Source: Cellulosilyticaceae bacterium (lineage in GTDB: Bacteria > Bacillota > Clostridia > Lachnospirales > Cellulosilyticaceae). Taken from it: 31,269 bases of DNA. The notes under the pieces were generated by a model. That model was given only the letters and a program-made list of their open reading frames with translations. It made no database searches and was not told the DNA's origin. The stretch spans positions 1-31,269 of the forward strand of contig JBOFIR010000037.1 in assembly GCA_051650265.1 (NCBI GenBank), written 5' to 3'. The number at the start of each line of letters is the position of its first letter. Positions within the stretch are counted from its first letter, which is position 1. The position numbers and the translations under genes were made by a program. Positions 2,339 through 30,821 of this stretch are shown here, piece after piece.

Positions 2339-3729
2339 ATGACGAACATTGTTTTTATCTTAATAGATGATATGGGCTGGAAAGACCTAGCCTGCTATGG
2401 CAGTACATATTATGAAACACCTGAGATTGATAAGCTTGCCAAGGGCGGCATGCGCTTTGATCAGGCTTATGCAGCTTCTCCTGTGTGTTCACCCACTCGT
2501 GCGAGTATCATGAGTGGGAAGTATCCCGCGAGAGTACAGGTTACTGATTGGATTGGGGCATCGGCTAGAGGTCGCCTTATTGATGCACCTTATGTAGACC
2601 ATCTGCCTTTGGCAGAGAAGAGTCTGGGGTCTGCCTTGAAGGAGAATGGCTATGCCACCTGGCATGTGGGCAAGTGGCATCTAGGTGCCAAGCCGTACTA
2701 TCCAGACCAGCATGGTTTTGATGTGAATATCGGGGGCAATCACGCAGGGCACCCACACCATGGCTACTTTAGCCCTTATCAGCTAGAGAATCTAGAGGAG
2801 GGACCTGATGGCGAGTATCTAACAGATCGCCTCACCGAGGAGAGTATCACACTCATTCGTAATAGAGATAAGACCAAGCCTTTCTTCCTCAATTTGTGGC
2901 ACTACACAGTGCATACACCGGTACAGGCAAAGGCTGCAGATATTGCTTACTTTGAAGAGAAGGCGAAGCGTTTGGGATTAGATCAGCAAGTCGCACTGGT
3001 AGAGGGAGAGCATTTCCCTTGTGAGCACAAGAAAAATCAGCGGGTAATGCGCCGCGTTGTCCAGTCAGACCCAGCCTATGCAGCTATGATCTACAATCTA
3101 GACTGGAACGTTGGGCGATTGATGCAGGTCTTAGAAGCAGAAGGGATCTTGGAGGATACACTGATCATCTTCACTTCGGACAATGGTGGCCTTGCCACAG
3201 CAGAAGGTTCACCCACATGCAATGCCCACTGAGTGAGGGCAAAGGCTGGATGTATGATGGTGGTGTGAGAGAGCCGCTCATAGCTTATTGGAAGGGGACC
3301 ATCGGATCAGATAGCCTCAGCCATCGGTTGGTCACAAGCCCTGATTTTTATCCAACGTTCTTGGAGATAGCAGGTGCACCACTACAGCCTCAGCAGCATC
3401 AAGATGGTGAGAGCTTTGCGAACACGCTTAGGGGAGCAGCAGGGGAGAGACAGCAGCCCCTATTCTGGCACTACCCTCATTATGGCAATCAAGGTGGCAC
3501 ACCGTACTCAGCCATCCGAGATGGGGCATATAAGCTCATTTATTTCTATGAAGACGAGAGCGTTGCACTCTATGATCTCACACAGGATGTAGGGGAAACA
3601 CATAATCTAGCAGATCAGATGCCAGAAGTTGTAGAGGCACTTCTGGTAACCTTAAAGAAATGGGTGGTTGAAGTTGATGGGAGAATTCCAGTTACAAACC
3701 CAGCCTATACAGACAGGGATCATCTTTAA
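2339..3729 (+). pseudogene. Cys-type sulfatase (arylsulfatase family), frameshifted
   Basis: N-terminal ORF 2339-3232 carries the sulfatase signature LIDDMGW...CSPTRASIMSGKYP (FGly motif C-S-P-T-R, Cys codon ~2486). Sulfatase-like sequence continues in the +2 frame (3217-3729: PLSEGKGWMYDGGVREPL...). The frames are joined by restoring one C in the run aatgCCCact (3225-3227). Frame-1 stop TGA is at 3230-3232. Confidence 0.65.
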
Positions 3730-4600
3730 TATACAGAAGTTTTCGGTCCATGATGGACCAGGAATCCGTACAACGGTGTTTATGAAAGGCTGCCCCCTTC
3801 GCTGTAAGTGGTGCCACAACCCAGAAGGACTCGCTAAGAGACAGCAGCTTCAGTATATGGCAACCCAGTGTATTGGCTGTCAGAAGTGTGCACAGGTGTG
3901 TCAGCAGGGTGTGCATACATTTGGGAACCAAGTCCATCTCGTGGATGCTAAGAAGTGCACGCTCTGCGAAGCCTGTATGGCGGCGTGTCCTGCGCAAGCA
4001 CTTGTAAGATGTGGGGATGTGATGACGGTGCAGCAGGTGATGCAGGAGGTTCTAGAAGATCAAGTTTTTTATGGGGAAACTGGCGGCGTGACTTTCTCGG
4101 GGGGCGAGGCTTTGATGCAAAGTCCTTTTGTAACAGAGGTCTTAAGCGCTTGTAAAGCAGAAGGGATCCATACAGCCATTGATACATCAGGGTATTGCAA
4201 ATGGGAGGATCTTGAGCGGACACTGCCGTATTGCGATTTGTACCTGTATGATATCAAGAGTCTCAATCTGGCAAAGCACAAGGAGTTAACAGGGGTGGAA
4301 CCCACTTTGATCTTAGAGAATCTAAAGCGCCTGGATGCAGCGCAAAAGCCCATATGGATCAGGGTACCTGTTATTGGTGGCTTGAATGCCAATGAGCAAG
4401 AGATGCGGGAAATTGCCCAGTTCATCAAATCACTAAGCCATGTGGCGCAGACAACTTTGATGCCCTATCATGTGCTTGGTAAAGAAAAGTATCAGACATT
4501 GGGGCGGGTCTATGACTATGATGCAAGTGAGCTTGTGACACAGGAGATGCTTTTGAGTTATCAGGCCATCTTTGTGTCTGAGGGGATTTTATTAAAATAG
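3677..4600 (+). CDS. Glycyl radical enzyme activating enzyme (radical SAM, PFL2-class with ferredoxin-like insert)
   Basis: GIIFNIQKFSVHDGPGIRTTVFMKGCPLRCKWCHNPE is the hallmark Gly-rich + CxxxCxxC N-terminus of PflA-like activases. Two additional CxxCxxCxxxC clusters (CIGCQKCAQVC, CTLCEACMAAC) are typical of activases of GDH/CutC-type GREs. Start is ambiguous: TTG 3668 (track) or ATG 3677. It overlaps the sulfatase 3' end, which stops at 3729. Confidence 0.85.
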   Translation: MGEFQLQTQPIQTGIIFNIQKFSVHDGPGIRTTVFMKGCPLRCKWCHNPEGLAKRQQLQYMATQCIGCQKCAQVCQQGVHTFGNQVHLVDAKKCTLCEACMAACPAQALVRCGDVMTVQQVMQEVLEDQVFYGETGGVTFSGGEALMQSPFVTEVLSACKAEGIHTAIDTSGYCKWEDLERTLPYCDLYLYDIKSLNLAKHKELTGVEPTLILENLKRLDAAQKPIWIRVPVIGGLNANEQEMREIAQFIKSLSHVAQTTLMPYHVLGKEKYQTLGRVYDYDASELVTQEMLLSYQAIFVSEGILLK

Positions 4601-4615: not shown

Positions 4616-6808
4616 ATGAATCGTACAGCTTTTTTAAGAAAGGTTACTATCAACAATGAGAATAAGATGATGCGCCGTGTGATGCCAGATGATTGGTCGG
4701 TAGCAGACAAGGCATGTAGCTTGATGGAAAGAAGAGCCTATGCAGTAGCGAAGGTACTTGAAGAGATGCCGCTCTATATAGGGGAGCAAGAATTGATCGT
4801 TGGTACAAGAACGATACTTGGTAGACTAGGTTCAGGCAAAGAACCAGAAGGGATCTCAGACTTTTGTGATGCAGTATTGCCAGCGTATGTTAATCAGCAG
4901 GATATAGACTTTTTTGGTTTTCATGCACCGCATCTGAAGACCCATGCTGCAGGTGATTATGGGATTATCCTACGCAAAGGGATTGATGGTGTTATTGCAC
5001 AGGCGAGGGAGCAATTAGAAGGCGAAATGCTTGAAGACCAAGCTGATTTTCTAAAAGCAGTGATCATCTGTTATCAGGGGCTAAGTACACTGATCAAGCG
5101 CTATAGTGACTATGCCCTGTTGTTGGCTACCCAAGAAGTGGATGCCACAAGAAAGGCGGAATTAGAGACTATTGCAACAGATTGTGAGTGGCTAGCCCAT
5201 CAACCCGCCCATGATTTTAAGCAGGCGTGCCAGATGCTATGGTTTGCGCATTTGACAGTCATGGTAGAAAATTTTGGGCTTATGAGCTATGGGAGGGTGG
5301 ATCAGGTACTTGCGCCTTATCTTGGAGTGATGCCAAAAGAACAAGCGCAGCAGTACATCGATTGTTTACTTCTTAAGATGTATGACCAGGTGGATCTCAA
5401 GGAATGTTACTATGGGACACATTCCTCACAGCCCAATATAACGATTGGGGGGATTACACCTGAGGGAGAAGATGCTATCAATGAGGTGACTTATTTACTC
5501 ATTGAAGGAAAGAAGCATACCAACCTACCTGACCCACAGTATGCTATTCGTATCCACAGCAAAAATCCTGAGCAGTATGTAGAGGCTGTCTGTGAACTTG
5601 CAGTAAAAGGTATCAATTGTGTCTCTTATTATAACGATGATCTTTGGATTGAGAGTATGTGCCATGCGGGCATATCACGGATACATGCCAATGACTATGC
5701 CTTTGATGTATGCCAAGATATGACAGTGGCTGGGAAGGGGGATTTTTGTGCATCTGGTGATATTTCACTCCTGCGTACCCTGCTTGATTATCTAGAAACT
5801 GTGTCTGCAGAATGTACTTGGGAGGTCTTATATGAGGGATTCAAGACACTTGCTATTCAAAAGATGGAAGAAGTGATTGGGCGATACAATCGTACACTAG
5901 AAGCCTTTATTGCATTTCATGAAGGCGATAGACAGAGGTATGTAGATCAAGTCAAAGCAGGTGAAGTCGGGCAGACTTTAGGATGGAATACATCTCTCAT
6001 GGCACCTATCCCTTTTACTTCAACACTATTTGAGGGGTGTATGGAGACCGCTACAGATTTGACACGAGTAGGCTGTCTACTCAAACATAGGGGCTTTTAC
6101 TTTATGGGGCCAACAGAGACCCTCAATGGGTTAAGTGCGATCAAATACTGTGTTTATGAGAAGAAAATGCTGAGTCTAGAGCAGGTCATTGCGGCCTATC
6201 AGTCAAATTATGAGGGGTTAGAAGGAGAGGTCATCAGACAGCACCTCCTTCATGCACCCAAATGGGGAAATGATGATGATTTTGTTGATCTACTTGCCAA
6301 AGATTTGTTTGAATCAGTCTGCCAAGAGGTGAGCAAACATCAGACACCAGATGGTGGGGTACATCTAGCAGGTCTGCATCAGGCACATCCTGTAGGTGAT
6401 GGCAAGTACTACGGCGCGACACCAGATGGTAGGCGTGCAGGTGAGCCCCTTACAGTATCTTTGTCACCTGCCAATGGGACAATGAAAAAAGGACCTTTAG
6501 CAGCGCTCAAATCTGTGGCAAAGCTTGATCCGAATTGTTGTCAGTGGAATAGCTGTTTCATGCTACAATACTTTAGTTCTGTCTTTGAAGGCAATGAGGG
6601 AATCACCAACTTCAAGAAGTTATTAGAAGGTTATTTTGCAATAGGTGGGATGCAGCATCAGCCCAATGTAGTAGATGTGGGTGCACTCAAGGCGGCACAA
6701 AGGGAGCCTGAAAAGTATAAGGATCTTATTGTGAGGATGTGGGGTGTTTCTGCCCACTTTGTAGACCTTACCAAAGAGATTCAAGATGAACTCATTAATC
6801 GTTTCTGA
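4616..6808 (+). CDS. Glycyl radical enzyme (PFL2/glycerol-dehydratase-like fold), divergent, substrate unassigned
   Basis: N-terminus RAYAVAKVLEEMPLYIGEQELIVGTRT resembles the GRE N-terminal region. C-terminal Gly-radical domain GGMQHQPNVVDVGALKAAQREPEKYKDLIVRMWGVSAHFVDLTKEIQDELINRF aligns to GG-Q-NV...PE-Y-DLIVRV(A/S)GYSA-F-L-KE-Q-E-I-R. Candidate thiyl loop NDYAFDVCQDMTV lies ~344 aa upstream of the radical Gly (Cys366, Gly710), consistent with GRE spacing. RBS GAGGTGAGGG. Confidence 0.8.
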   Translation: MNRTAFLRKVTINNENKMMRRVMPDDWSVADKACSLMERRAYAVAKVLEEMPLYIGEQELIVGTRTILGRLGSGKEPEGISDFCDAVLPAYVNQQDIDFFGFHAPHLKTHAAGDYGIILRKGIDGVIAQAREQLEGEMLEDQADFLKAVIICYQGLSTLIKRYSDYALLLATQEVDATRKAELETIATDCEWLAHQPAHDFKQACQMLWFAHLTVMVENFGLMSYGRVDQVLAPYLGVMPKEQAQQYIDCLLLKMYDQVDLKECYYGTHSSQPNITIGGITPEGEDAINEVTYLLIEGKKHTNLPDPQYAIRIHSKNPEQYVEAVCELAVKGINCVSYYNDDLWIESMCHAGISRIHANDYAFDVCQDMTVAGKGDFCASGDISLLRTLLDYLETVSAECTWEVLYEGFKTLAIQKMEEVIGRYNRTLEAFIAFHEGDRQRYVDQVKAGEVGQTLGWNTSLMAPIPFTSTLFEGCMETATDLTRVGCLLKHRGFYFMGPTETLNGLSAIKYCVYEKKMLSLEQVIAAYQSNYEGLEGEVIRQHLLHAPKWGNDDDFVDLLAKDLFESVCQEVSKHQTPDGGVHLAGLHQAHPVGDGKYYGATPDGRRAGEPLTVSLSPANGTMKKGPLAALKSVAKLDPNCCQWNSCFMLQYFSSVFEGNEGITNFKKLLEGYFAIGGMQHQPNVVDVGALKAAQREPEKYKDLIVRMWGVSAHFVDLTKEIQDELINRF

Positions 6809-18076: not shown

Positions 18077-18607
18077 ATGCGCTATGTGATTGTTTCAGAA
18101 GTAAGAGGTGCAGCAGGTATTTTTAATAACAACTTAAGAAAAGAAGTTTTGGAGCAGTTTGGCGCAAGATCTTCTAAGCTTCCAGCACATATCACACTCA
18201 AAGCGCCTTTTGAATACGATGGTGATTTGAAAGCGCTTGATGCAATCTTAGAGCACTTCGTCAGTAGGGAGTGGGCACAGCCATACCAGGTGGCGGGTTA
18301 CAATCATTTTGATGATCGTGTGATCTATATGGATGTACAAATGTCTAGCACAGGTAAGGCGATGCACGACCGATTGATAGAGGTTATGGGTGAGTTGCCT
18401 TATATTCACTATACCGAGACAGATGGCAAGGATAAGGTGTTTCATGTGACCATCTCTTCAAAGAAGATTCAGGGTATTTATACCCAGCTATGGGATTATG
18501 TGCATGAGTATCCTTGCATATTTGACTGTTGGTTTGATAATATCACCATCTATCGATGGGGAAATAATACATGGGAGTTGGACAGACGTTATGAGCTTGA
18601 ATTGTAG
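18077..18607 (+). CDS. 2H phosphoesterase superfamily protein (LigT / 2'-5' RNA ligase-like)
   Basis: Two H-x-T-x motifs (HITL near the N-terminus, HVTI near the C-terminus) at the spacing typical of the 2H fold. RBS GGAAGGAG. Confidence 0.6.
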
Positions 18608-21006: not shown

Positions 21007-21042
21007 AAAGCGGTCATCCGAGTTATGGATGAACCGCTTTTT
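21007..21042. terminator. Bidirectional rho-independent terminator between convergent genes
   Basis: aaaagcggtcatcc / ggatgaaccgctttt stem (1-nt bulge) with flanking A- and T-runs. Overlaps the last codons of the minus-strand PHP gene. Confidence 0.6.
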
Positions 21043-21880
21043 GTTTGAGGTAAAGCCCCTCAAGAATATCGTAGGTGATGGCAAGTGAGCCATAACCTGA
21101 GCCAATCTCAAGATTAGGCTTGTTGATGCCGTGGAAATCGCTACCGCCTGTTGGTACAAGGTTGTACTTGAGGCAGAAGTTTAGAAGCATCACACTTTCT
21201 TCACTACTGTATTTGGCATAGATGGCTTCGAGACCATCAAGCCCTGCATGCATGAGATCCTTGAGAAAGACATCGAGTTCTTCTGTGCTAAAGCCATACA
21301 GAAGAGGGTGTGCAATGACAGCAATTCCGCCGGCTTCGTGAATGAGTGCGATACACTCCTCATAAGCCATGCTTTGCTTTGGTACATAGGCAGGTCTACC
21401 TGATGAGAGGTATTTGCTAAAAGCTTCATCCATGCTGGCCACATAGCCTTTTGCAAGGAGTGCACGGCCAAAGTGGGCACGTGTCAAGATGCTGTCCGCA
21501 TCGCCTTGGCTACGAAGGTCAGCCATTGTAATATCAAGACCAAGATCTTGCAGCTTTTCAAGCACAAGATCATTTCTACGGTCACGTTCACGTACGAGTG
21601 CTTCAAGTCTACCAAGAAGCTGAGGGTGGTTGGGATTAATATAGTAACCTAATACGTGGATTTCTTTTGATCCATAGTGAGCTGTAAGCTCAATTCCTGG
21701 AATAACTGTAAGATCTACAAGTTTCCCGGCGTCGATGCAAGTCATCACCCCTGAAGTGGTATCGTGATCAGTAAGTGCGATTGCACTGAGTCCTTTGGCT
21801 TTTGCATAAAAGGCAAGTTCGCGAGGGGTGAGTGTGCCATCTGATGTTGTTGAATGTACATGTAAGTCAATTAATTGCAT
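21023..21880 (-). CDS. PHP domain metal-dependent phosphoesterase (TrpH/YciV-like)
   Basis: MQLIDLHVHSTTSDGTLTPREL...ALTDHDT is the canonical PHP N-terminal His/Asp metal motif. RBS AAGGAGG. Confidence 0.75.
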   Translation of the reverse strand: MQLIDLHVHSTTSDGTLTPRELAFYAKAKGLSAIALTDHDTTSGVMTCIDAGKLVDLTVIPGIELTAHYGSKEIHVLGYYINPNHPQLLGRLEALVRERDRRNDLVLEKLQDLGLDITMADLRSQGDADSILTRAHFGRALLAKGYVASMDEAFSKYLSSGRPAYVPKQSMAYEECIALIHEAGGIAVIAHPLLYGFSTEELDVFLKDLMHAGLDGLEAIYAKYSSEESVMLLNFCLKYNLVPTGGSDFHGINKPNLEIGSGYGSLAITYDILEGLYLKQKAVHP

Positions 21881-21979: not shown

Positions 21980-22390
21980 ATGAACAAGCACAAACATAGC
22001 AAAAAAATGCAGTTTGACATACCTGTCGTCGGGATGACACTACTTAAAGCGAATGTGATGGCATTTGCACTCACGGCAATCTTTATTATTTTTACTTCAA
22101 TCATGCTTACATATACCAATATTGGACCAAGTTTTGAAAAAGCAATTGTAATGGTTGGGTGTATGGCTGCTGCATTCTTAGTAGGATTCGACACTGCAAA
22201 AGTTGATACGCGAAATGGTTACAAGTGGGGCGCTATTGGCGGGATAAGCTATCTAGTAATATTCCTAATCATAGCAGCACTTACACAAGGCATGAGCGCA
22301 CTCAATATGGGTTATTTGTTTACTTTAGCAATACTTATCGTACTCAGCAGTGGTATAGCTGGTATGATTTCCGTCAATTCTCAAAAATAA
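21980..22390 (+). CDS. Small integral membrane protein (4 predicted TM helices), unknown function
   Basis: Strong RBS GGGGGGAG 6 nt upstream of ATG. Hydrophobic 136-aa product. Confidence 0.5.
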   Translation: MNKHKHSKKMQFDIPVVGMTLLKANVMAFALTAIFIIFTSIMLTYTNIGPSFEKAIVMVGCMAAAFLVGFDTAKVDTRNGYKWGAIGGISYLVIFLIIAALTQGMSALNMGYLFTLAILIVLSSGIAGMISVNSQK

Positions 22391-22401
22391 CCTTCTACTG
22401 T

Positions 22402-22429
22402 TTGCAAAACTAGCAAGATATGGTATAAT
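22402..22429 (+). promoter_or_regulatory. Sigma-A promoter for the SCIFF operon (-35 TTGCAA, 16-bp spacer, extended -10 TGgTATAAT)
   Basis: TTGCAA 22402-22407, TATAAT 22424-22429 preceded by TGg. About 30 nt upstream of the SCIFF ATG, with RBS GAGGAGGG. Confidence 0.55.
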
Positions 22430-22459
22430 GAAGCAGGTTTATTGCGAGGAGGGAAAAGA

Positions 22460-22597
22460 ATGAAACACGTTAAAACTCTTAATACTAAAAACTTAAAAAA
22501 CAGTGCAGCTAAAGGTGGTTGTGGTGAGTGTCAAACATCTTGCCAATCAGCATGTAAAACATCTTGTACTGTAGGAAATCAAGCTTGCGAAAAATAA
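22460..22597 (+). CDS. SCIFF (six cysteines in forty-five residues) ranthipeptide precursor
   Basis: Not in the ORF track. Hand translation gives MKHVKTLNTKNLKNSAAKGGCGECQTSCQSACKTSCTVGNQACEK (exactly 45 aa, TAA 22595-22597). Leader ends in GG and the core has six Cys. RBS GAGGAGGG 7 nt upstream. Immediately followed by its radical SAM maturase. Confidence 0.85.
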   Translation: MKHVKTLNTKNLKNSAAKGGCGECQTSCQSACKTSCTVGNQACEK

Positions 22598-22613
22598 GTT
22601 TTGATTAAAACAA

Positions 22614-22650
22614 AAGGCTATCGGCGTCAAGTTGGTAGCCTTATTTAATT
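22614..22650 (+). terminator. Weak intrinsic terminator/attenuator hairpin between SCIFF precursor and maturase
   Basis: 7-bp stem aaggcta / tagcctt with 15-nt loop, followed by atttaatt. Confidence 0.3.
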
Positions 22651-22682
22651 ATTCACATCATAGATGCAGAAAGGAAATCGAC

Positions 22683-24038
22683 ATGATTCATAAATTTAAA
22701 TTTGAAAACTCAAATATCGTAATGGATATTCATAGTGGCGCGGTACACCTTCTTGACGAAGTTGCTTACGAGATCGTAGAAGATGTACTTGCTTTAGCAA
22801 AAGACGAAGTATTAGGTAAGTATCAAGACCAGTTCCAGCAAGATGATCTGCTTGAAGCAGTTGAAGAACTCCTTGAACTCAAAGAGCAAGGAATGCTTGG
22901 AACAGAAGATACATATAGAGATCTTGTACCAGCATTCATGGATAGACAACCTGTAGTTAAAGCACTTTGTCTTCACGTAGCACATGACTGTAACCTCAAA
23001 TGTAAGTATTGCTTTGCAGGAGAAGGGGAGTACCATGGCGAGCGTGGCATGATGAGCGCAGAGGTTGGTAAAGCTGCGATCGATTTCCTTGCAAAAAACT
23101 CAGGTAATCGTAAAAATATCGAAGTAGACTTCTTTGGTGGAGAGCCACTTATGAACTTTGATGTTGTCAAAGAAGTTGTAGACTATGCAAGAAGCATTGA
23201 AGCAGAAGCTGGCAAGAACTTCAGATTTACAATGACAACAAATGGTGTACTCTTAAGTGATGAGATCATCGACTACCTCAATGAGCATATGCACAATGTG
23301 GTACTAAGTCTTGATGGTAGACCAGAAGTCAATGACCGTATGCGTCCAACATGCAATGGCAAAGGAAGCTACGATGTGATCCTTCCAAAGTTCAAGAAAC
23401 TTGTGGAAAAAAGAGGTGGTAAACAATACTATCTTCGTGGAACATTTACACACCACAACCTTGACTTTGCAGCGGATGTCACACATATGGCAGATCAAGG
23501 ATTCGGTGAAGTATCTGTAGAGCCAGTTGTTGCACCAACTGAGATGGACTACGCACTTCAAACAGGTGATATCAAACTCATCTGCAAAGAGTATGAAAAA
23601 CTTGCAAAAGAGATGCTTAGAAGACACAAAGAAGATGGCGAATGCTTCAACTTCTTCCACTTCATGATCGATCTTACAGGTGGACCATGTGTACACAAAC
23701 GTCTTGCAGGATGTGGTTCAGGGACAGAGTACCTTGCAGCAACACCAAATGGCGAACTTTACCCATGTCACCAATTTGCTGGTATGCCAGAATTCAAGAT
23801 GGGTGATGTATGGACAGGCGTAACAAATACTGAGCGTCGTTGTGAGTTCGAAAAATGCAACGTTTATAGCAAAGATGAATGTGCAAATTGTTGGGCGAAA
23901 TTCTACTGTAGTGGTGGTTGCGCAGCGAACTCATACCATTTCCATGGGCATATCAATGACACTTATGAGATTGGTTGTGAGCTTCAAAAGAAGCGTATTG
24001 AATGTGCAATTGGTCTAAAAGCTGAGCTTTGTGACTAA
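22683..24038 (+). CDS. SCIFF radical SAM/SPASM maturase (CteB-like thioether-forming enzyme)
   Basis: ATG 22683 with AAAGGAAA RBS (the track start at TTG 22632 lies inside the hairpin). CNLKCKYC radical-SAM CxxxCxxC motif near the N-terminus. C-terminal Cys-rich SPASM region (GGPCVHKRLAGCGSG...CANCWAKFYCSGGC). Product is 451 aa. Confidence 0.85.
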   Translation: MIHKFKFENSNIVMDIHSGAVHLLDEVAYEIVEDVLALAKDEVLGKYQDQFQQDDLLEAVEELLELKEQGMLGTEDTYRDLVPAFMDRQPVVKALCLHVAHDCNLKCKYCFAGEGEYHGERGMMSAEVGKAAIDFLAKNSGNRKNIEVDFFGGEPLMNFDVVKEVVDYARSIEAEAGKNFRFTMTTNGVLLSDEIIDYLNEHMHNVVLSLDGRPEVNDRMRPTCNGKGSYDVILPKFKKLVEKRGGKQYYLRGTFTHHNLDFAADVTHMADQGFGEVSVEPVVAPTEMDYALQTGDIKLICKEYEKLAKEMLRRHKEDGECFNFFHFMIDLTGGPCVHKRLAGCGSGTEYLAATPNGELYPCHQFAGMPEFKMGDVWTGVTNTERRCEFEKCNVYSKDECANCWAKFYCSGGCAANSYHFHGHINDTYEIGCELQKKRIECAIGLKAELCD

Positions 24039-24044
24039 TTAGAT

Positions 24045-24073
24045 TTGACTAAATTCACTAGCAATTATATAAT
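24045..24073 (+). promoter_or_regulatory. Consensus sigma-A promoter for secDF (TTGACT - 17 bp - TATAAT)
   Basis: TTGACT 24045-24050, TATAAT 24068-24073. RBS AAGGAGGAG upstream of the ATG at 24111. Confidence 0.55.
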
Positions 24074-24110: not shown

Positions 24111-25382
24111 ATGAAAGGGAACAGCAAGACAAAACTCAAAAGTATTCTCGCTCTTATACTCGTTGTAGCAGTGATTGCGGTGAGCGTCGTCGTTGCTTAT
24201 ATGGGGGTAGGGGAAGATAATACGCTTGGGATTGAGAACATCAGATTAGGGCTTGACCTTCAGGGCGGCGTGAACATTATCTATGAAGCTGCTATTGAAG
24301 ATCCTACAGAAGATGACATGCGTGCAGCGCAAGCTATGATTCAAAACCGTCTTGATAAAGAGAATTATACTGAGGCGGAAGTTGCGATTGAGGGAAGCAA
24401 CCGTATTAGGGTAGATATTCCTGGTGTAGATGATCCTCAAAAAGCAATCAATGAGATTGCTGCAACAGCCATGTTAGTTTTCTATGATGGTGAAGGCAAA
24501 GAAGTCCTTGCAGGAAAGAATATCTCTAAGGCAGCAGCAGCGATGGCACCAAATAGCTTGGGTGTACAAGAGCCTGTTGTAAGTATTGAAATGGACAAAG
24601 AGGGTGCAGAGCTCTTCTCTGAGTTCACTAAAAATAATATTGGTAAGCCAATCATCATTACACTTGATGGTGTCGTGATTAGCCAAGCAAACATCCAAAG
24701 TCATATCAGTGATGGTAAAGGGATGATCTCAGGTAACTTTACACCAGAGTCAGCACAACAACTTGCAGAGCGTATTGAAGCAGGTTCACTGCCATTTGCA
24801 CTCAAGCCAATTTCTTCAAATGGTGTAGGGGCAAAATTAGGTATTGGCGCACTTAACACAAGTGTTAAAGCGGGTGTGATTGGTTTCATCTGTATCTTAG
24901 TATTCATGCTTATATTATTTAAAGTCAATGGTATTGCAGCGAATATCGCGCTTACATTCTATGTAGCCATTGTACTGATGATCCTCAGCTATACAGAATC
25001 AACGATGACATTACCAGGTATTGCAGGTTTTATCCTCTCCATCGGTATGGCAGTTGATGCCAACGTCATCATCTTCACACGTATCCGTGAAGAGCTTGAA
25101 AATGGTAGAAATGTACGTGCAGCGATTGATGCAGGTTTTGAAAGAGCACTCAATGCCATCGTAGATGGTAACGTGACAACGATGATGTCAGCTGTCGTTC
25201 TTTATGTTTTAGGAACAGGCCTCATCAAGAGCCTTGCTATGACACTGATTATTGGTAACGTGGTAGCCCTTTTCACAGCGCTTACAGTAACACGTTATAT
25301 TATCAAACTATTTGTAGGAATTGGAATCAAAAATCCTGTATGGTTTGGTGCAAGAAAAAAACGTCAGGTGAAGGAGGCATAG
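24111..25382 (+). CDS. secD: Protein translocase subunit SecD
   Basis: N-terminal TM, periplasmic domain with LGLDLQGGV motif, 6 C-terminal TM helices. Immediately followed by secF. Confidence 0.85.
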   Translation: MKGNSKTKLKSILALILVVAVIAVSVVVAYMGVGEDNTLGIENIRLGLDLQGGVNIIYEAAIEDPTEDDMRAAQAMIQNRLDKENYTEAEVAIEGSNRIRVDIPGVDDPQKAINEIAATAMLVFYDGEGKEVLAGKNISKAAAAMAPNSLGVQEPVVSIEMDKEGAELFSEFTKNNIGKPIIITLDGVVISQANIQSHISDGKGMISGNFTPESAQQLAERIEAGSLPFALKPISSNGVGAKLGIGALNTSVKAGVIGFICILVFMLILFKVNGIAANIALTFYVAIVLMILSYTESTMTLPGIAGFILSIGMAVDANVIIFTRIREELENGRNVRAAIDAGFERALNAIVDGNVTTMMSAVVLYVLGTGLIKSLAMTLIIGNVVALFTALTVTRYIIKLFVGIGIKNPVWFGARKKRQVKEA

Positions 25383-25385
25383 TTC

Positions 25386-26309
25386 ATGAAATTTATTGAA
25401 AACAGAAAGAAATTTTATGTGCTTTCACTCGTAGTCATTCTTGTAGGGTTACTTGCTATGCCTTATCATGCAATCAAAGGTGATGGTATGCTGAACTACG
25501 ATATCGAGTTCAGAGGTGGTACTGTTATGCAACTTGAGATTGGACAAGATTTTGATATGAATGAAGAGATCAGACCTTTAGTGATCGAACACTTAGGGGA
25601 TCCAAATCCAAGACTCCAGATGGTAACAGGTGAACAACAGGTCATCGTAACCACACAACCTACAGAGGTTGCGCAAAGAGAAGCATTAGTTAAAGCCATC
25701 AAGGATAAATACAAAATGCAAACAAGTCCGATGCTTTCAGAGAACTTTGTATCCCCAAGTATTAGTCCCGAGATCAAAGCCAAAGCAATCGAAGCAGTTG
25801 TATTAGGATCAATCCTTATGCTGATCTATATCAGTATCAGATTCAAAGATCTTAAGTTTGGGACAAGTGCTGTACTTGCACTCGTGCATGACGTTCTTGT
25901 GATGTTGGCGGTGTATTCATTATTCCGTATCCCAATCAACAATTCATTCATTGCAGCGATGCTTACTGTAATCGGTTACTCAAACAACGATACAATCATT
26001 GTATTTGACCGTATCAGAGAGAACAGAGGACGTATGAAAGCAGATGATACAACGCTGATCAATGCGAGTATCAATCAGACTTTAGCACGTTCAATCTATA
26101 CAAGTTTAACAAGTTTAGTCATGGTGACATTACTCTACATCTTCGGTGTAGAGTCAGTGAGATCATTTGCATTCCCACTCATGGTTGGTATTGCTGCAGG
26201 AACTTATTCATCAATCTTCGTAGCCAGCCCACTCCTCTTTGAGATGAGAAAATGGGAGCGTAACAAAAAGCAAAAACAAAAGCCAGAAGCGAAAGCAAAA
26301 AAGGCATAA
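25386..26309 (+). CDS. secF: Protein translocase subunit SecF
   Basis: N-terminal TM, DIEFRGGT motif, C-terminal multi-TM domain (RND-like). Starts 4 nt after the secD stop. Lys-rich C-terminal tail. Confidence 0.85.
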   Translation: MKFIENRKKFYVLSLVVILVGLLAMPYHAIKGDGMLNYDIEFRGGTVMQLEIGQDFDMNEEIRPLVIEHLGDPNPRLQMVTGEQQVIVTTQPTEVAQREALVKAIKDKYKMQTSPMLSENFVSPSISPEIKAKAIEAVVLGSILMLIYISIRFKDLKFGTSAVLALVHDVLVMLAVYSLFRIPINNSFIAAMLTVIGYSNNDTIIVFDRIRENRGRMKADDTTLINASINQTLARSIYTSLTSLVMVTLLYIFGVESVRSFAFPLMVGIAAGTYSSIFVASPLLFEMRKWERNKKQKQKPEAKAKKA

Positions 26310-26534: not shown

Positions 26535-26717
26535 TTGAAACAACACCGAATAGCGTGTAACATGACCCAAGAGTTTGTTGCAGAGGCAATTGGGGTCAGC
26601 AGACAGGCAGTATCCAAGTGGGAGAATGGTACATCGGACCCAAGCACATCGAATCTCATTGCACTGGCAAGATTATTCAAAATCTCTACTGAAGAGCTAC
26701 TGCACGAAGTGCAATAA
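26535..26717 (+). CDS. XRE-family helix-turn-helix transcriptional regulator (60 aa)
   Basis: LKQHRIACNMTQEFVAEAIGVSRQAVSKWENG is a classic Cro/C1-type HTH. Start is uncertain (TTG 26535 with weak GGTGA RBS, or ATG 26568). Confidence 0.5.
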   Translation: MKQHRIACNMTQEFVAEAIGVSRQAVSKWENGTSDPSTSNLIALARLFKISTEELLHEVQ

Positions 26718-26776
26718 ACGGGCACAACATAAGGTTTGAAAATTTAGAGCACACATAAAAAAAGGAAAGCGTGATC

Positions 26777-27004
26777 ATGAGAAAACAGCAAAAATGGCTG
26801 GACTTTGCAAAGGTGCCTGCGTACTCTGAATTGGGGCAGGTAATCGCTCAGTACAACTATATGGGTACCCGTGGGGAAAGCTATTCTTGGCTCATGCGTA
26901 TACTTCCTCCAAGTTATCGTATGTTTCAACCGCCTGCGGTACTTTATGATAGTATGATTTTTGTAGCAAATGCGAGCCCGACGCAAATAATCACACAAAA
27001 ATAG
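26777..27004 (+). CDS. Hypothetical protein (75 aa)
   Basis: ATG 26777 is 9 nt after AAAGGAAAG. No recognisable motif. Followed by a terminator hairpin. Confidence 0.35.
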   Translation: MRKQQKWLDFAKVPAYSELGQVIAQYNYMGTRGESYSWLMRILPPSYRMFQPPAVLYDSMIFVANASPTQIITQK

Positions 27005-27007
27005 AGG

Positions 27008-27047
27008 AAGAACCCATGGATCACAGCCTTGGGTTCTTTCTTTGTGT
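27008..27047 (+). terminator. Rho-independent terminator
   Basis: aagaaccca / tgggttctt 9-bp stem, 13-nt loop, tctttctttg tail. Confidence 0.4.
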
Positions 27048-27140
27048 GCAAAACCTCTAAAAGTAATGGGTAAAATTGGACAAAAATGATAATTCTTTTC
27101 GAATGAATACTTAAAAATAGATAAATAATAAATAGTATGG

Positions 27141-27211
27141 TGAATGAAAATGAATGAATCTGACTAGAAATGAATAAATAGTGACCGAAAATGATTGAAA
27201 ATGACTGAATG
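27141..27211 (+). promoter_or_regulatory. Array of ~7 direct repeats at 10-bp phasing upstream of fruR (candidate DeoR/FruR operator)
   Basis: tgaatgaaaa | tgaatgaatc | tgactagaaa | tgaataaata | gtgaccgaaaa | tgattgaaaa | tgactgaatg. Lies 34-104 nt upstream of the fruR ATG. Confidence 0.4.
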
Positions 27212-27244
27212 TGCGTGTAGAATAGAGATAAGGAAGTGATAACC

Positions 27245-27997
27245 ATGTTAACAGAAGAAAGACAACAATTGATTTTGCAAAGGCTGAGACAACAAGGCAG
27301 TGTCAGCGTTGGTGAACTAGTGGAGTTGTTTGAGACGTCAGAGTCTACAATCAGGAGGGACTTGACTGCTTTAGGTGAAAAAGGACAACTCAAAAAAATA
27401 CATGGTGGCGCTATGCTCAGTGAGGGGGTTGCCTCTCATGTAGAGTATCGCATGGATCATAAGCAGGGGATGAATCCCGCCCAGAAGGAGCGCATTGCAA
27501 GACATGCAGCAAAGTTTATTCGGGATGGGGATGTGATTTATCTCGATGCAGGAACAACAACAGAACTTATGATTGAGTATATCAATGCAGATAATTTGAT
27601 TGCGGTGACCAATGGTATTGGTCATGTGACAAAACTTCTCCGTAAGGGGATTCAGACAATCATTATAGGTGGGCAGGTAAAGGCTACTACAGAGGCAATC
27701 GTAGGTGTTGGTGCAATAGGGGACCTAGATAAGTATCAGTTTACTAAAGGTTTCTTTGGTGCCAATGGTGTAGGTAGCCAAGGGTATACGACACCTGATA
27801 TGGAAGAGGCTATGGTCAAGGAAAAAGCCATGCAGCACTGCAATGAAGCCTATGTGTTAGCAGATAGTAGCAAGATTGGTAAAGTGAGTTTTGTACGCTT
27901 TGCTCAGATTGATGAAGCGACACTCATTACCAATGATAAAGTGGATAAGAAATTACATGAAAAGACAATGATAATAGAGGTGGACAGCAATGATTAG
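27245..27997 (+). CDS. fruR: DeoR-family transcriptional repressor of the fructose operon
   Basis: N-terminal HTH (LILQRLRQQGSVSVGELVELFETSESTIRRDL), C-terminal DeoR sugar-phosphate-binding domain. First gene of the fruR-fruK-fruA arrangement. ATG 27245 is 7 nt after AAGGAAG (track start GTG 27236). Confidence 0.8.
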   Translation: MLTEERQQLILQRLRQQGSVSVGELVELFETSESTIRRDLTALGEKGQLKKIHGGAMLSEGVASHVEYRMDHKQGMNPAQKERIARHAAKFIRDGDVIYLDAGTTTELMIEYINADNLIAVTNGIGHVTKLLRKGIQTIIIGGQVKATTEAIVGVGAIGDLDKYQFTKGFFGANGVGSQGYTTPDMEEAMVKEKAMQHCNEAYVLADSSKIGKVSFVRFAQIDEATLITNDKVDKKLHEKTMIIEVDSND

Positions 27998-28898
27998 TAC
28001 AGTAACTTTAAATCCGTCTATTGATTACCTAGTGAAGGTCGATCATTTTAAAGTGGATGCAGTCAATCGCACACAAGAGGAGCAGATGTTTCCTGGTGGT
28101 AAGGGAATCAATGTATCGATTGTACTGAGTAACTTAGGGATTCCAAATAAGGCACTAGGATTTATCGCAGGATTTACAGGCGTTGAAATCACAAGAATGG
28201 TAGAAGCATCTGGGGTATCAAGTGAGTTTATCCAGTTAGAAAAAGGCTTATCACGTATCAATGTCAAACTCAAAAGTGATGAGGAGACAGAGATTAATGG
28301 CAATGGCCCAGAAATTACAAGTGAGCATATTTGTGCGCTTTATGCACAAATTGAAGCATTGACATCAGGTGATGTATTGGTACTTGCAGGAAGTATTCCA
28401 AGCACAGTGCCAAGTGATATCTATCAGCAGATTATGCATGATTTTGCACACAAGAACTTACGTATCGTAGTGGATGCAACAAAGGATCTTCTGATGAATG
28501 TATTGCCTCTTGGCCCATTCCTTATCAAGCCAAATCATCATGAACTTGGAGAACTCTTTGGGGTGACGATCAAGGATCAAGATGAGGTGGTGACCTATGC
28601 CAAGAAGCTTCAAGAAAAAGGTGCAAGAAATGTACTTGTTTCTATGGCTGGTGATGGTGCGGTATTGGTAACAGAAGATGGGCAGGTTATGAAACATACA
28701 GGTCTGAAAGGTCAAGTGAAAAACTCAGTCGGTGCAGGTGACTCTATGGTTGCAGGTTTTGTTGCAGGTTATGTACAGACTGAGAAATTTGAAGAAGCTT
28801 TCAAGATGGGGATTGCGGCAGGAAGCGCATCTGCGTTCTCTGTAGAACTCGCAACGAGAATAGAGGTGGAGGCGCTTCTAGGACAACTTTCAATATAA
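27990..28898 (+). CDS. fruK: 1-phosphofructokinase (PfkB family)
   Basis: MISTVTLNPSIDY N-terminus, GAGDSMVAGF (ATP-site GAGD motif of PfkB ribokinase-like kinases). Overlaps the fruR stop by 8 nt. Context is between fruR and fruA. Confidence 0.85.
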   Translation: MISTVTLNPSIDYLVKVDHFKVDAVNRTQEEQMFPGGKGINVSIVLSNLGIPNKALGFIAGFTGVEITRMVEASGVSSEFIQLEKGLSRINVKLKSDEETEINGNGPEITSEHICALYAQIEALTSGDVLVLAGSIPSTVPSDIYQQIMHDFAHKNLRIVVDATKDLLMNVLPLGPFLIKPNHHELGELFGVTIKDQDEVVTYAKKLQEKGARNVLVSMAGDGAVLVTEDGQVMKHTGLKGQVKNSVGAGDSMVAGFVAGYVQTEKFEEAFKMGIAAGSASAFSVELATRIEVEALLGQLSI

Positions 28899-28931
28899 AA
28901 GAGGACCAAAGACAGCAAAGGAGATGACAGC

Positions 28932-30821
28932 ATGAGAATTGTAGATTTAATCAAACAAAGTGGCATGAATCTTGCCTTCGAAGCGACAAGCAAGAATGAT
29001 GCGGTAGACAAGCTCGTAAACCTAATGAACGCTACAGGTGCACTTGCAGATAAGGAAGGCTACAAAACGGCAATACTTACAAGAGAAGATCAAGGAAGTA
29101 CAGGTATTGGGGATGGGATTGCTATTCCACATGCCAAGACAGCAGCGGTCAAAGTACCAGCGCTTGCAGTTGCAAGAAGTGTAGAGGGTGTAGAATATGA
29201 TAGCTTGGACGGCGCGCCAGCGAAGCTCTTCTTTATGATTGCAGCACCAGCAGGTGGTGAGAATGTGCATCTTGATGTGCTTTCAAGATTGTCAACAATT
29301 CTGATGGATGAAAATTTCATTGCAGATTTGATGAAAGAGCCAACAAAAGAAGCTTTTCTTACGTGTATTGATGCCAAGGAACGTGAAAAGTTCCCTGTAG
29401 AAGAAGCTGAGGTGCCTACGCAGGCAAAATCTGAAGGCTATACAGTGCTTGCAGTGACAGCATGTCCAACAGGGATCGCACATACTTATATGGCAGCAGA
29501 AAGTCTTCAAAACAAGGCAAAGGATAAAGGAATTGCACTTAAAGTAGAAACTAACGGGTCAACAGGTGCCAAAAATGCGCTGACACAAGCAGAAATTGAT
29601 GGGGCGACATGTATTATTGTAGCAGCAGATAAGAAGATAGAGATGGCACGTTTTGACGGCAAGAAAGTGATTATTACCAAAGTTGCTAATGGGATTCATA
29701 AGGCAGATGAGCTTCTTGAGCGTGCAGTAGCAGCAGATGCTCCTGTTTACCATCACCAAGGTGAAGGGAAGGCCACGGCGCATGAAGCGGAGCAAGAGAG
29801 CTTTGGTAGACAAATCTACAAGCATCTGATGAATGGCGTATCTCACATGTTACCATTTGTAATTGGTGGGGGATTACTCATTGCACTGGCATTCTTATTT
29901 GATGACTATGCCATCAATCCAGCCAACTTTGGATCTAATACACCATTTGCAGCATTCCTCAAGAGTGTAGGTGATACCGCATTTGGCTTTATGCTACCAG
30001 TATTAGCAGGTTATATTGCCATGAGTATTGGTGAAAGACCTGCGTTAGCAGTTGGTTTCGTAGGTGGTATGTTGGCAAATACAGGAGGTGCAGGATTCTT
30101 AGGTGCACTCTTAGCAGGTTTCATTGCAGGTTATTTAGTGAAAGGGCTTGGTAAAGTTTTTGGTTACTTACCACAGTCATTAGAAGGCATCAAGCCAACA
30201 TTACTTTATCCTTTGTTTGGAACACTCCTTATTGGAGCGATCATGATGTTTGCTGTGAACCCACCTGTAGCGGCGGCAAATGCAGCTATTACAAACTTCT
30301 TAAATAGCATGGGAACAACAAGTCAGGTGTTGTTAGGAATCGTTGTAGCGGCGATGATGGCGATTGATATGGGTGGCCCAATCAACAAAGCAGCTTATGT
30401 ATTTGGTGTAGCTTCACTAGAGTCAGGCAACTTTGCCATTATGGCAGCGGTAATGGCTGGTGGTATGGTACCACCTCTTGCAATTGCCCTTGCGACAACA
30501 ATCTTTAGAAGTAAGTTCTCTAAGAAAGACAAAGATGCAGGTCTTACAAACTACATCATGGGGCTCTCTTTCATCACAGAAGGCGCCATTCCTTTTGCAG
30601 CAGCTGATCCACTTCGTGTGATTCCATCAGCAGTAGTAGGAGCTGGTGTTGCAGGTGCACTTACTATGATGTTTGGGTGTGCACTACGTGCACCACATGG
30701 TGGGGTATTTGTACTACCGGTTATAGAAAACCCATTTGGCTATGTGATTGCAGTTGTTGCAGGTGCACTTGTAGGTGCTATCATGCTAGGACTACTCAAG
30801 AAACCACTGGACGAAAAATAG
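28932..30821 (+). CDS. fruA: PTS fructose-specific EIIABC component
   Basis: IIA domain (GIAIPHAK phospho-His region), IIB (CPTGIAHTYMAAE phospho-Cys motif), then a C-terminal multi-TM IIC domain. 629 aa. Confidence 0.85.
   Translation: MRIVDLIKQSGMNLAFEATSKNDAVDKLVNLMNATGALADKEGYKTAILTREDQGSTGIGDGIAIPHAKTAAVKVPALAVARSVEGVEYDSLDGAPAKLFFMIAAPAGGENVHLDVLSRLSTILMDENFIADLMKEPTKEAFLTCIDAKEREKFPVEEAEVPTQAKSEGYTVLAVTACPTGIAHTYMAAESLQNKAKDKGIALKVETNGSTGAKNALTQAEIDGATCIIVAADKKIEMARFDGKKVIITKVANGIHKADELLERAVAADAPVYHHQGEGKATAHEAEQESFGRQIYKHLMNGVSHMLPFVIGGGLLIALAFLFDDYAINPANFGSNTPFAAFLKSVGDTAFGFMLPVLAGYIAMSIGERPALAVGFVGGMLANTGGAGFLGALLAGFIAGYLVKGLGKVFGYLPQSLEGIKPTLLYPLFGTLLIGAIMMFAVNPPVAAANAAITNFLNSMGTTSQVLLGIVVAAMMAIDMGGPINKAAYVFGVASLESGNFAIMAAVMAGGMVPPLAIALATTIFRSKFSKKDKDAGLTNYIMGLSFITEGAIPFAAADPLRVIPSAVVGAGVAGALTMMFGCALRAPHGGVFVLPVIENPFGYVIAVVAGALVGAIMLGLLKKPLDEK

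What the first reader, a model, noticed from the sequence alone, without database searches (positions are those of the whole stretch)
22402..24038. Unannotated 45-codon SCIFF ranthipeptide gene plus CteB-like radical SAM/SPASM maturase directly upstream of secDF
The ORF track, which lists only longer ORFs, misses the gene at 22460-22597. Its translation fits the SCIFF family in exact length, GG leader end, and six Cys.

- **Crosslink residues.** Cys32 and Thr37 are present, as needed for a CteB-type Cys-S to Thr-C-gamma thioether.
- **Maturase.** The next gene has CNLKCKYC plus a SPASM Cys cluster.
- **Status of the family.** SCIFF was defined bioinformatically and is essentially Clostridia-restricted. 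The physiological function of the mature peptide is still unresolved.
- **Local context here.** It has a dedicated near-consensus promoter, a hairpin between precursor and maturase, and the essential secDF immediately downstream with its own TTGACT-17-TATAAT promoter.
Basis: partly seen in the sequence, partly recalled or inferred. Interest (0 to 1): 0.7.

Follow-up and report, generated by a model that had tools for sequence, protein, structure and literature searches.

The report
Ordinary SCIFF peptide and maturase operon
This is a textbook copy of the SCIFF system, a 45-residue cysteine-rich peptide gene followed by the radical-SAM enzyme that cross-links it; it occurs in nearly all Clostridia, public records already annotate it, and its position in front of secDF is the family norm.

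Summary

- **Peptide gene.** 22460-22597 (+) encodes a 45-aa SCIFF peptide (TIGR03973 85.7 bits, cut-off 50). The exact sequence is in NCBI as [quoted passage not shown].
- **Maturase.** 22683-24038 (+) is its ScfB maturase (TIGR03974 722 bits, cut-off 425). It is 58% identical over its full length to the crystallised CteB. NCBI already names the identical protein, on a contig of the window's length, a SCIFF maturase.
- **Selection.** Across 77 related loci, core residues 19-38 never change, while every one of those codons uses 2-4 synonymous forms. The small ORF is therefore a real gene under strong selection.
- **Regulatory signals.** All three have comparative support. An extended -10 promoter precedes the peptide gene in 73 of 76 loci. 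A stable hairpin follows its stop codon in essentially all 77 loci, with unrelated stem sequences and often a T-tract. The secD promoter is identical in 13 relatives.
- **secDF adjacency.** This is not local. secD directly follows scfB in 67 of 80 related genome loci and in 51 of 64 informative metagenome loci, and sometimes overlaps it.

The parts
21980..22390 (+). TIGR04086 / DUF3792 small membrane protein (136 aa). It is a frequent same-strand upstream neighbour of SCIFF genes; its function is unknown.
   Evidence: TIGR04086 scores 55.2 bits (cut-off 30) and PF12670 50.5 bits. A homologue lies directly upstream of SCIFF in 38 of 69 genome loci and 45 of 94 metagenome loci. The same block appears in L081-L088.
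22401..22429 (+). Dedicated sigma-A type promoter of the peptide gene: -35 TTTGCA, 17-nt spacer, extended -10 TGgTATAAT.
   Evidence: An extended -10 (TGnTATAAT-like), mostly about 30-50 nt before the ATG, is present in 73 of 76 orthologous loci. The best match is at least 10/12 in 51% of loci against 8% of shuffles. Such sites are rare in the window.
22446..22453 (+). Ribosome-binding site GAGGAGGG, ending 6 nt before the ATG of scfA.
   Evidence: Read directly from the sequence. AGGAGG-type sites are conserved in the same place in relatives.
22460..22597 (+). scfA: the 45-aa SCIFF precursor. Residues 1-20 form the leader, ending in Gly-Gly; residues 21-45 form the core with six Cys.
   Evidence: TIGR03973 85.7 bits against a cut-off of 50, and PF13165 87.1 against 27. 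The leader aligns with the CteA 21-mer co-crystallised with CteB. Core residues 19-38 are invariant in 77 loci despite 2-4 synonymous codons per position. The exact sequence is annotated as SCIFF in NCBI.
22614..22652 (+). Stem-loop (12 bp, 5-nt loop) plus a T-rich tail between scfA and scfB. It is probably a partial intrinsic terminator or transcript-stabilising 3' hairpin.
   Evidence: The terminator scan flags it. Minimum free energy is -21.7 kcal/mol, z -3.18. A stable hairpin occupies the same position in essentially all 77 loci, with unrelated stem sequences and often a canonical T-tract. Median z across loci is -3.4, and 81% fall below -2. No Rfam family matches.
22683..24038 (+). scfB: radical SAM/SPASM thioether-forming SCIFF maturase (451 aa). 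It has an N-terminal leader-binding domain, a CX3CX2C radical-SAM cluster and two auxiliary-cluster Cys sets.
   Evidence: TIGR03974 scores 722.3 bits against 425. The exception model not_ScfB scores 597.9, below its cut-off of 855. CteB (5wgg_A) matches at E 2e-181 over residues 1-448, with 57.8% identity; 13 of CteB's 14 Cys, including every radical-SAM and SPASM-region Cys, are conserved.
24045..24073 (+). secD promoter TTGACT-17-TATAAT, in the 72-nt gap after scfB. No terminator separates scfB from secD.
   Evidence: The same hexamers and spacing recur in 13 related loci whose flanking bases have diverged.
24111..26309 (+). secD (24111-25382) and secF (25386-26309), the conserved downstream neighbours of the cassette.
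   Evidence: TIGR01129 336.7 bits against 244.4, and TIGR00966 289.3 against 160. secD directly follows scfB in 67 of 80 genome loci (gaps from -11 to 287 nt) and in 51 of 64 informative metagenome loci.

Best explanation
This is a canonical SCIFF ranthipeptide cassette (scfA-scfB) in a Cellulosilyticaceae (Lachnospirales) genome, embedded in the conserved block DUF3792 - scfA - scfB - secD - secF.

**Shown here**
- Both genes are bona fide family members.
- The peptide gene is under extreme purifying selection.
- It has its own conserved extended -10 promoter.
- A positionally conserved hairpin separates it from the maturase gene.
- secD follows, with its own conserved promoter and no intervening terminator.

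**Inferred from the characterised homologues CteA/CteB and Tte1186a/Tte1186**
- The N-terminal domain of ScfB binds the leader (residues 1-20).
- The radical-SAM cluster cleaves SAM, and the resulting 5'-deoxyadenosyl radical abstracts a hydrogen from a core threonine (Thr34 or Thr37).
- That carbon is joined to the sulfur of Cys32, held at an auxiliary Fe-S cluster, giving a non-alpha thioether ring.

**Inferred from the anatomy**
- The hairpin terminates or stabilises most transcripts after scfA. Peptide mRNA would then greatly exceed maturase mRNA, as in many peptide natural-product operons.
- Read-through supplies scfB and adds to secDF transcription.

The role of the mature peptide is most likely a conserved regulatory or signalling one, as reported for solventogenic clostridia, rather than an antibiotic one.
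For: - **Family membership:** HMM scores are above the curated cut-offs.
- **Homology to CteB:** the match is full length and the Cys ligands are conserved. The leader matches CteA.
- **Existing annotation:** public records already carry identical proteins under these names.
- **Selection:** the core is invariant with synonymous variation at every codon in 77 loci.
- **Promoter conservation:**
- **Hairpin conservation:** the position is kept while the sequence is not.
- **secD promoter conservation:**
- **Synteny:**
- **No export or cleavage partner:** no C39 peptidase, ABC exporter or immunity-like gene occurs anywhere in the window. Together with a core identical across families of bacteria, this argues against a bacteriocin.
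- **Chemistry and phenotype from the literature:** PMC8326336, PMC10114670, PMC8102284 and bioRxiv 10.1101/2025.02.12.637840.
Against: - Nothing contradicts the family assignment.
- The chemistry, the acceptor residue, leader removal, export and physiological role are not testable from sequence.
- The literature itself disagrees on Thr34 versus Thr37, and on whether the other five Cys are modified.
- The window's hairpin has a weak T-tract (ATTTAATTAT), so termination efficiency may be low.
- A core sequence that is identical across orders fits poorly with a species-specific quorum signal.
Confidence: 0.93

Rival explanations
1. The cassette is functionally coupled to protein secretion. On this reading the cross-linked peptide, possibly with the DUF3792 membrane protein, acts on or travels through the SecDF-assisted translocon. 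Conserved adjacency, and in some lineages overlap, of scfB and secD would then reflect a shared pathway rather than inherited gene order.
For: - secD directly follows scfB in 67 of 80 and 51 of 64 loci from two independent samples.
- The two genes overlap by about 11 nt in six loci, and are 0-30 nt apart in eleven more.
- No dedicated exporter or protease is present in the window.
- A DUF3792 membrane protein lies upstream in about half of all loci.
- The core is invariant across lineages, as expected for a partner of conserved machinery.
Against: - Conserved order among housekeeping genes is common without any functional link.
- About 20% of loci lack secD downstream.
- Here and in close relatives, secD has its own conserved promoter.
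- The peptide has no signal-peptide features.
- The published phenotype concerns sporulation and agr regulation, not secretion.
- No paper in the searchable library mentions SCIFF together with secD or a Sec translocase.
Confidence: 0.1
2. The peptide is a secreted antimicrobial (a bacteriocin-like sactipeptide or ranthipeptide).
For: Many radical-SAM thioether peptides are antimicrobial. The Gly-Gly before the core resembles double-glycine leaders.
Against: - No C39 peptidase/ABC exporter or immunity gene is present in the window.
- There is one copy per genome, and the core is identical across many genera, so there is no target-producer distinction.
- The review literature makes the same argument.
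Confidence: 0.03
3. The 45-codon ORF is a chance open frame, and the radical-SAM enzyme acts on another substrate.
For: None, beyond the fact that the ORF is short and a length-filtered ORF list misses it.
Against: - The HMM E-value is 1.4e-24.
- It has a strong ribosome-binding site.
- The amino-acid sequence is invariant despite abundant synonymous change in 77 loci.
- The exception model for orphan ScfB-like enzymes scores below its cut-off.
Confidence: 0.01

Closest known systems
CteA / CteB (thermocellin system) of Acetivibrio (Clostridium) thermocellus; CteB structure PDB 5WGG/5WHY
   Same: - The architecture is the same two genes.
- The maturase is 57.8% identical over 448 residues, and every radical-SAM and SPASM-region Cys of CteB is conserved.
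- Leader residues 1-21 align with the co-crystallised CteA fragment.
- Cys32, Thr34 and Thr37 are present.
- Metagenome loci whose maturases are 66-70% identical to CteB also have secD downstream (L089, L115, L126, L171).
   Different: - The host lineage differs (Cellulosilyticaceae, Lachnospirales).
- The leader differs at 6 of 21 positions.
- The window enzyme has six extra, non-conserved Cys (224, 301, 321, 387, 392, 450).
- No biochemical data exist for this orthologue.
Tte1186a / Tte1186 of Caldanaerobacter subterraneus (the first SCIFF studied in vitro)
   Same: It belongs to the same TIGR03973/TIGR03974 families. A single Cys32-Thr37 thioether was reported, and both residues are present here.
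   Different: It comes from a thermophile of a different order.
[quoted passage not shown] 2020)
   Same: They belong to the same peptide and maturase family. These are the only members with a reported in vivo phenotype: sporulation genes down and agr up after disruption, with a quorum-sensing role proposed.
   Different: They are in a different order (Clostridiales). A pangenome study places the characterised clusters in one of three large ranthipeptide groups, and whether the Lachnospirales group shares the function is untested.
PapA / PapB (freyrasin) and QhpD
   Same: Both are radical SAM/SPASM enzymes that form non-alpha thioethers. The window enzyme gives sub-threshold matches to both models: PapB 281 bits (cut-off 340) and QhpD 283 bits (cut-off 453).
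   Different: The substrates and linkages differ: Cys-Asp C-beta bridges in freyrasin, and a protein subunit for QhpD. The scores fall below the cut-offs, so the window enzyme is not a member of either family.

Membership tests
SCIFF precursor peptide (TIGR03973 / PF13165) | The family HMM scores above the curated cut-off. | tested here: met
   TIGR03973 scores 85.7 bits against 50, and PF13165 87.1 against 27, each covering the whole model.
SCIFF precursor peptide (TIGR03973 / PF13165) | The peptide is about 45 residues long, with six Cys in the C-terminal half after a Gly-Gly. | tested here: met
   It is 45 aa, with G19-G20 and Cys at 21, 24, 28, 32, 36 and 43.
SCIFF precursor peptide (TIGR03973 / PF13165) | The gene lies immediately upstream of a TIGR03974 radical-SAM maturase. 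| tested here: met
   An 85-nt gap separates it from scfB. The same arrangement holds in 77 of 80 related loci.
SCIFF precursor peptide (TIGR03973 / PF13165) | The host belongs to class Clostridia. | tested here: met
   The nearest loci and proteins come from Cellulosilyticaceae, Niameybacter, Zhenhengia, Holtiella and Epulopiscium. Restriction of the family as a whole to Clostridia was not tested.
SCIFF precursor peptide (TIGR03973 / PF13165) | The ORF is a real translated gene, under selection at the protein level. | tested here: met
   Residues 19-38, 40, 41, 43 and 44 are invariant in 77 loci, with 2-4 synonymous codons each. Translation itself was not observed.
ScfB / CteB-type SCIFF maturase (TIGR03974) | The family HMM scores above its cut-off, and the exception model for orphan look-alikes scores below its own. 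| tested here: met
   TIGR03974 scores 722.3 bits against 425. NF040492 (not_ScfB) scores 597.9 against 855.
ScfB / CteB-type SCIFF maturase (TIGR03974) | A CX3CX2C radical-SAM cluster motif is present. | tested here: met
   C103-NLK-C107-KY-C110 aligns with C102, C106 and C109 of CteB.
ScfB / CteB-type SCIFF maturase (TIGR03974) | A C-terminal SPASM domain carries the Cys ligands for two auxiliary Fe-S clusters. | tested here: met
   Cys 336, 344, 362, 400, 403, 409, 413, 432 and 441 all align with CteB Cys. The Pfam SPASM model alone scores below its gathering threshold (18.0 against 21.5).
ScfB / CteB-type SCIFF maturase (TIGR03974) | An N-terminal leader-recognition (RRE-like) domain is present. 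| tested here: inconclusive
   Residues 1-90 align without gaps to the N-terminal domain of the CteB crystal-structure sequence. No RRE-specific model or structure prediction was run.
[quoted passage not shown] | The mature product carries a Cys sulfur linked to a beta or gamma carbon. | not testable with these tools
   This needs MS/MS and NMR of the product. The donor Cys32 and both candidate acceptors, Thr34 and Thr37, are present.
Double-glycine leader peptides exported by C39-peptidase ABC transporters | A Gly-Gly cleavage site occurs together with a linked C39 peptidase/ABC exporter. | tested here: not met
   The Gly-Gly is present and invariant. None of the 26 larger ORFs of the window that were scanned matches a C39 peptidase or an ABC exporter. 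"GG leader end" therefore remains an inference about the cleavage site.
Intrinsic (Rho-independent) terminator / attenuator between precursor and maturase genes | A G+C-rich stem-loop is followed by a U-tract at a conserved position. | tested here: inconclusive
   The stem is strong (12 bp, z -3.18) and its position is conserved in essentially all 77 loci. The window's tail is only ATTTAATTAT, whereas many relatives have TTTTATTTT. Termination itself was not measured.

The most novel reading that the evidence does not exclude
The conserved block DUF3792 - scfA - scfB - secD - secF may be a functional unit. It shows overlapping scfB and secD in some lineages, no dedicated exporter or protease, and a peptide core identical across orders. 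On this reading the thioether peptide is a housekeeping factor that acts at the membrane with, or through, the SecDF-assisted translocon, rather than a free signal or antibiotic. No paper in the searchable library links SCIFF with SecD, SecF or a Sec translocase. The founding bioinformatic paper could not be read here, however, so the linkage may already have been noted.
Probability: 0.1. Interest if true: 0.6.

Novelty: already known. Interest (0 to 1): 0.13.

Why it matters
As a finding about this window it matters little. It is one more copy of a family described in 2011, with a crystal structure of a 58%-identical enzyme, and the identical proteins are already named in public records.

Three by-products of the check may help people working on the open question of what SCIFF peptides do:
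- The core is invariant at the amino-acid level across 77 loci despite saturated synonymous change.
- A dedicated extended -10 promoter and a positionally conserved post-peptide hairpin appear to be family-wide regulatory features.
- The cassette sits directly in front of secDF in about 80% of loci from two independent samples, sometimes overlapping secD, and follows a DUF3792 membrane-protein gene in about half.

These patterns argue for a conserved cellular role and suggest testable partners.

Tried and rejected
- **Alternative start codons.** The TTG at 22442 for the peptide and the TTG at 22632 for the maturase come from the mechanical ORF list. I rejected both. The family models and CteB align from the ATGs at 22460 and 22683, relatives conserve the MKH... 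and MIHKF... N-termini, and ribosome-binding sites precede the ATGs.
- **Known RNA families.** An Rfam scan of the whole window found nothing. The hairpin is therefore not a described riboswitch or small RNA.
- **Primary papers.** Haft & Basu 2011, Bruender 2016, Grove 2017 and Hudson 2019 are not held. Chemistry statements rest on two reviews.
- **Literature on the secDF link.** Searches for SCIFF with secD or translocase found nothing relevant. One search was wasted because the term "SPASM" matched medical papers.
- **Streptomyces protein P0246.** This 957-aa protein shares the SCIFF peptide's 90% cluster. It is a clustering artefact, with only a 13-residue Cys-rich match.
- **queA-tgt-yajC neighbourhood.** I expected these genes nearby from memory, but they are absent from this window. 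A tgt-like gene precedes SCIFF in one metagenome locus.
- **Covariation statistics on the hairpin.** I did not pursue these. Within a clade the stems barely vary, and between clades they cannot be aligned. The argument therefore rests on positional conservation and folding z-scores.
- **Searches not run.** A third large protein search (with CteB) and a structure prediction were not run. Metagenome loci with 66-70% identity to CteB and the 58% identity to a crystal structure already answered those questions.
Full report
**1. What is in the sequence**

- **Peptide ORF.** ATG 22460 to TAA 22597 on the + strand encodes MKHVKTLNTKNLKNSAAKGGCGECQTSCQSACKTSCTVGNQACEK. It is 45 residues long, with Gly19-Gly20 and Cys at 21, 24, 28, 32, 36 and 43. 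Thr34 and Thr37 are both present.
- **Translation signal.** A GAGGAGGG ribosome-binding site ends 6 nt before the ATG.
- **Maturase gene.** After an 85-nt gap, the next gene starts at ATG 22683 and ends at 24038. The mechanical ORF list extends it to a TTG at 22632, but family models and CteB align from the ATG.
- **Downstream.** secD (24111-25382) and secF (25386-26309) follow after 72 nt.
- **Upstream.** A 136-aa TIGR04086/DUF3792 membrane protein lies at 21980-22390 (+), and a divergent PHP-domain phosphoesterase at 21023-21880 (-).

**2. Family membership**

- **Peptide.** It scores 85.7 bits on TIGR03973 (cut-off 50) and 87.1 bits on Pfam SCIFF (cut-off 27).
- **Enzyme.** It scores 722.3 bits on TIGR03974 (cut-off 425). 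NCBI's exception model for ScfB-like orphan enzymes scores 597.9, below its cut-off of 855.
- **Solved structures.** The best hit is CteB (5WGG/5WHY) at E 2e-181 over residues 1-448. Identity is 57.8%. The CX3CX2C motif (C103, C107, C110) and all nine SPASM-region Cys of CteB are conserved.
- **Leader.** The first 21 residues of the peptide align with the CteA fragment co-crystallised with CteB.

**3. It is already annotated**

- The identical maturase exists in NCBI on a contig of 31,269 bp, the length of this window. It is named [quoted passage not shown].
- The exact 45-aa peptide carries several NCBI accessions and the name [quoted passage not shown]. It is seen on 91 contigs.

**4. Is the small ORF a real gene?**

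I collected 80 genome loci encoding relatives of the maturase (60-94% identity). A SCIFF ORF lies upstream in 77 of them.
- The peptides differ in the leader and at the extreme C-terminus.
- Residues 19-38 (GGCGECQTSCQSACKTSCTV), 40, 41, 43 and 44 are identical in all 77.
- Every one of those invariant codons uses 2-4 synonymous forms.
- The flanking proteins in the same loci are only 40-85% identical.

This substitution pattern is unambiguous evidence for strong purifying selection on the encoded peptide.

**5. Regulatory signals**

Consensus matches alone mean little. The loose scan found 15 promoter-like sites in the region against 13.1 expected. Two further tests give them weight.

There are 5 sites with at least 11/12 matches against 1.3 in shuffles. 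There are 3 sites with 10/12 plus TGnTATAAT against 0.3 in shuffles.

*Conservation in orthologous loci.*
- An extended -10 element precedes the peptide gene in 73 of 76 loci, mostly about 30-50 nt before the start codon, with a cTTtxCAAA-like -35 region 17 nt upstream.
- The secD promoter TTGACT-17-TATAAT is identical in 13 Cellulosilyticaceae-type loci whose surrounding intergenic bases have diverged.

*The hairpin.* In the window it is a 12-bp stem at 22614-22642 followed by ATTTAATTAT. The terminator scan flags it, and it folds with z = -3.18.
- Essentially all 77 loci have a stable stem-loop shortly after the SCIFF stop codon.
- The stem sequences are unrelated between clades: AAGGCTATC..., AAGCTTTCAAC..., GCAGTGAC..., TAAGCTAAGC..., AGCGGGGAG....
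- Median z is -3.4, and 81% of loci fall below -2.
- In an 18-locus clade it is a textbook intrinsic terminator, GCAGTGAC-loop-GTCGCTGC followed by TTTTATTTT.
- No Rfam family matches anywhere in the window.

The most economical reading is a partial terminator, or a 3' stabilising hairpin. It would give far more peptide mRNA than maturase mRNA, as is common in peptide natural-product operons. This step is inferred, not shown.

**6. The secDF context**

I ran two.

*Genome sample.* secD and secF directly follow scfB in 67 of the 80 loci.
- Gaps run from -11 to 287 nt.
- The genes overlap in six loci and are 0-30 nt apart in eleven more.

*Metagenome sample.* I scanned with a degenerate pattern for the invariant core, which does not depend on similarity of the maturase or of secD. 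This gave 120 contigs.
- Their maturases are 48-64% identical to the window's, and up to 70% identical to CteB.
- Of 64 loci with a complete maturase and at least 1.5 kb downstream, 51 have secD next on the same strand.

*Other neighbours.*
- A DUF3792 gene lies directly upstream on the same strand in 38 of 69 genome loci and 45 of 94 metagenome loci. This is a lower bound, because the profile was built from close relatives.
- Loci carrying the identical peptide show the same PHP(-) / DUF3792 / SCIFF / maturase / SecD / SecF block.

*Caveats.* The arrangement is the family norm. Both samples are biased: the first towards relatives of this organism, the second towards human-gut assemblies. I could not stratify by taxonomy.

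**7. Mechanism and what is known**

According to a 2021 review (PMC8326336):
- In vitro work on Tte1186 and CteB found a single thioether between Cys32 and Thr37.
- The later study that defined ranthipeptides showed a C-gamma linkage but placed it between Cys32 and Thr34.
- The discrepancy, and the fate of the other Cys, remain open.

Both Thr residues are invariant here. The same review argues that the near-universal presence of SCIFF in Clostridia speaks against an antibiotic role, and lists quorum sensing as the reported activity.

Disrupting the pair in C. beijerinckii lowered sporulation-gene expression and raised agr expression (PMC8102284). A recent pangenome preprint finds one ranthipeptide cluster per species, conserved across clostridial orders.

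In this window I found no C39 peptidase, ABC exporter or immunity-like gene among the 26 larger ORFs scanned. The Gly-Gly is therefore a conserved feature, but its role as a cleavage site is only an inference.

**8. Verdict**

It is an already-known system in its usual genomic setting. Interest is low.

The one reading that would raise it is that the conserved DUF3792-scfAB-secDF block reflects a functional link to the Sec machinery. The evidence does not exclude this. I give it about 10%, because conserved order among housekeeping genes is common, one locus in five lacks the linkage, and secD keeps its own promoter here.

Noticed in passing
window 2339-3232 and 3217-3729 (+), with 3668-4600 and 4616-6808: A sulfatase appears split over two overlapping frames: Sulfatase domain, then SGSH_C domain, with a 16-nt overlap. 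This suggests a frameshift, a pseudogene or an assembly error. It is followed directly by a radical-SAM activase and a glycyl-radical enzyme (PFL-like plus Gly_radical).
   Followed up: no
L120 (core at 2277), L147 (10910), L161 (289), L204 (260): These SCIFF genes have a perfect core but no ScfB-like gene anywhere in the 5-14 kb held. They are orphan precursors. In L120 the gene is preceded by a tgt-like gene.
   Followed up: partly
L051, L056, L058, L061, L065, L073 (scfB/secD junctions, e.g. L051 7373-7383): scfB and secD overlap by about 11 nt in six Lachnospirales-type loci and are 0-30 nt apart in eleven more. This implies co-transcription and possibly translational coupling. In the window, by contrast, the 72-nt gap carries a promoter.
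   Followed up: partly
window 21980-22390 (+) and orthologous positions: A TIGR04086/DUF3792 membrane protein of unknown function lies directly upstream of SCIFF on the same strand in about half of all loci examined: 38 of 69 and 45 of 94. It may belong to the system.
   Followed up: partly
protein P0246 (cluster of the SCIFF peptide): A 957-aa Streptomyces FAD/Fe-S protein is filed in the same 90%-identity cluster as the 45-aa peptide. Direct comparison shows only a 13-residue Cys-rich match (E 0.05), so this is a clustering artefact.
   Followed up: yes
window 19-1188 (+) and 18077-18607 (+): Two sizeable ORFs have no family match. The 389-aa ORF was scanned against Pfam only, and the 176-aa ORF against NCBIfam only.
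   Followed up: no
window 26535-30821 (+): Downstream of secF lie a 60-aa XRE-type HTH protein and a fructose utilisation operon: DeoR-family repressor, 1-phosphofructokinase and PTS fructose IIABC. No terminator-like site was found on the + strand between secF and these genes.
   Followed up: no
window 22520-22575 (peptide residues 18-40): The SCIFF core (CX2CX3CX3CX3C) gives a weak match to the ferredoxin-type 4Fe-4S motif of epoxyqueuosine reductase (E 0.048). The spacing differs from the classical CX2CX2CX3C motif. This hints at metal or cluster binding by the unmodified Cys, and nothing more.
   Followed up: no
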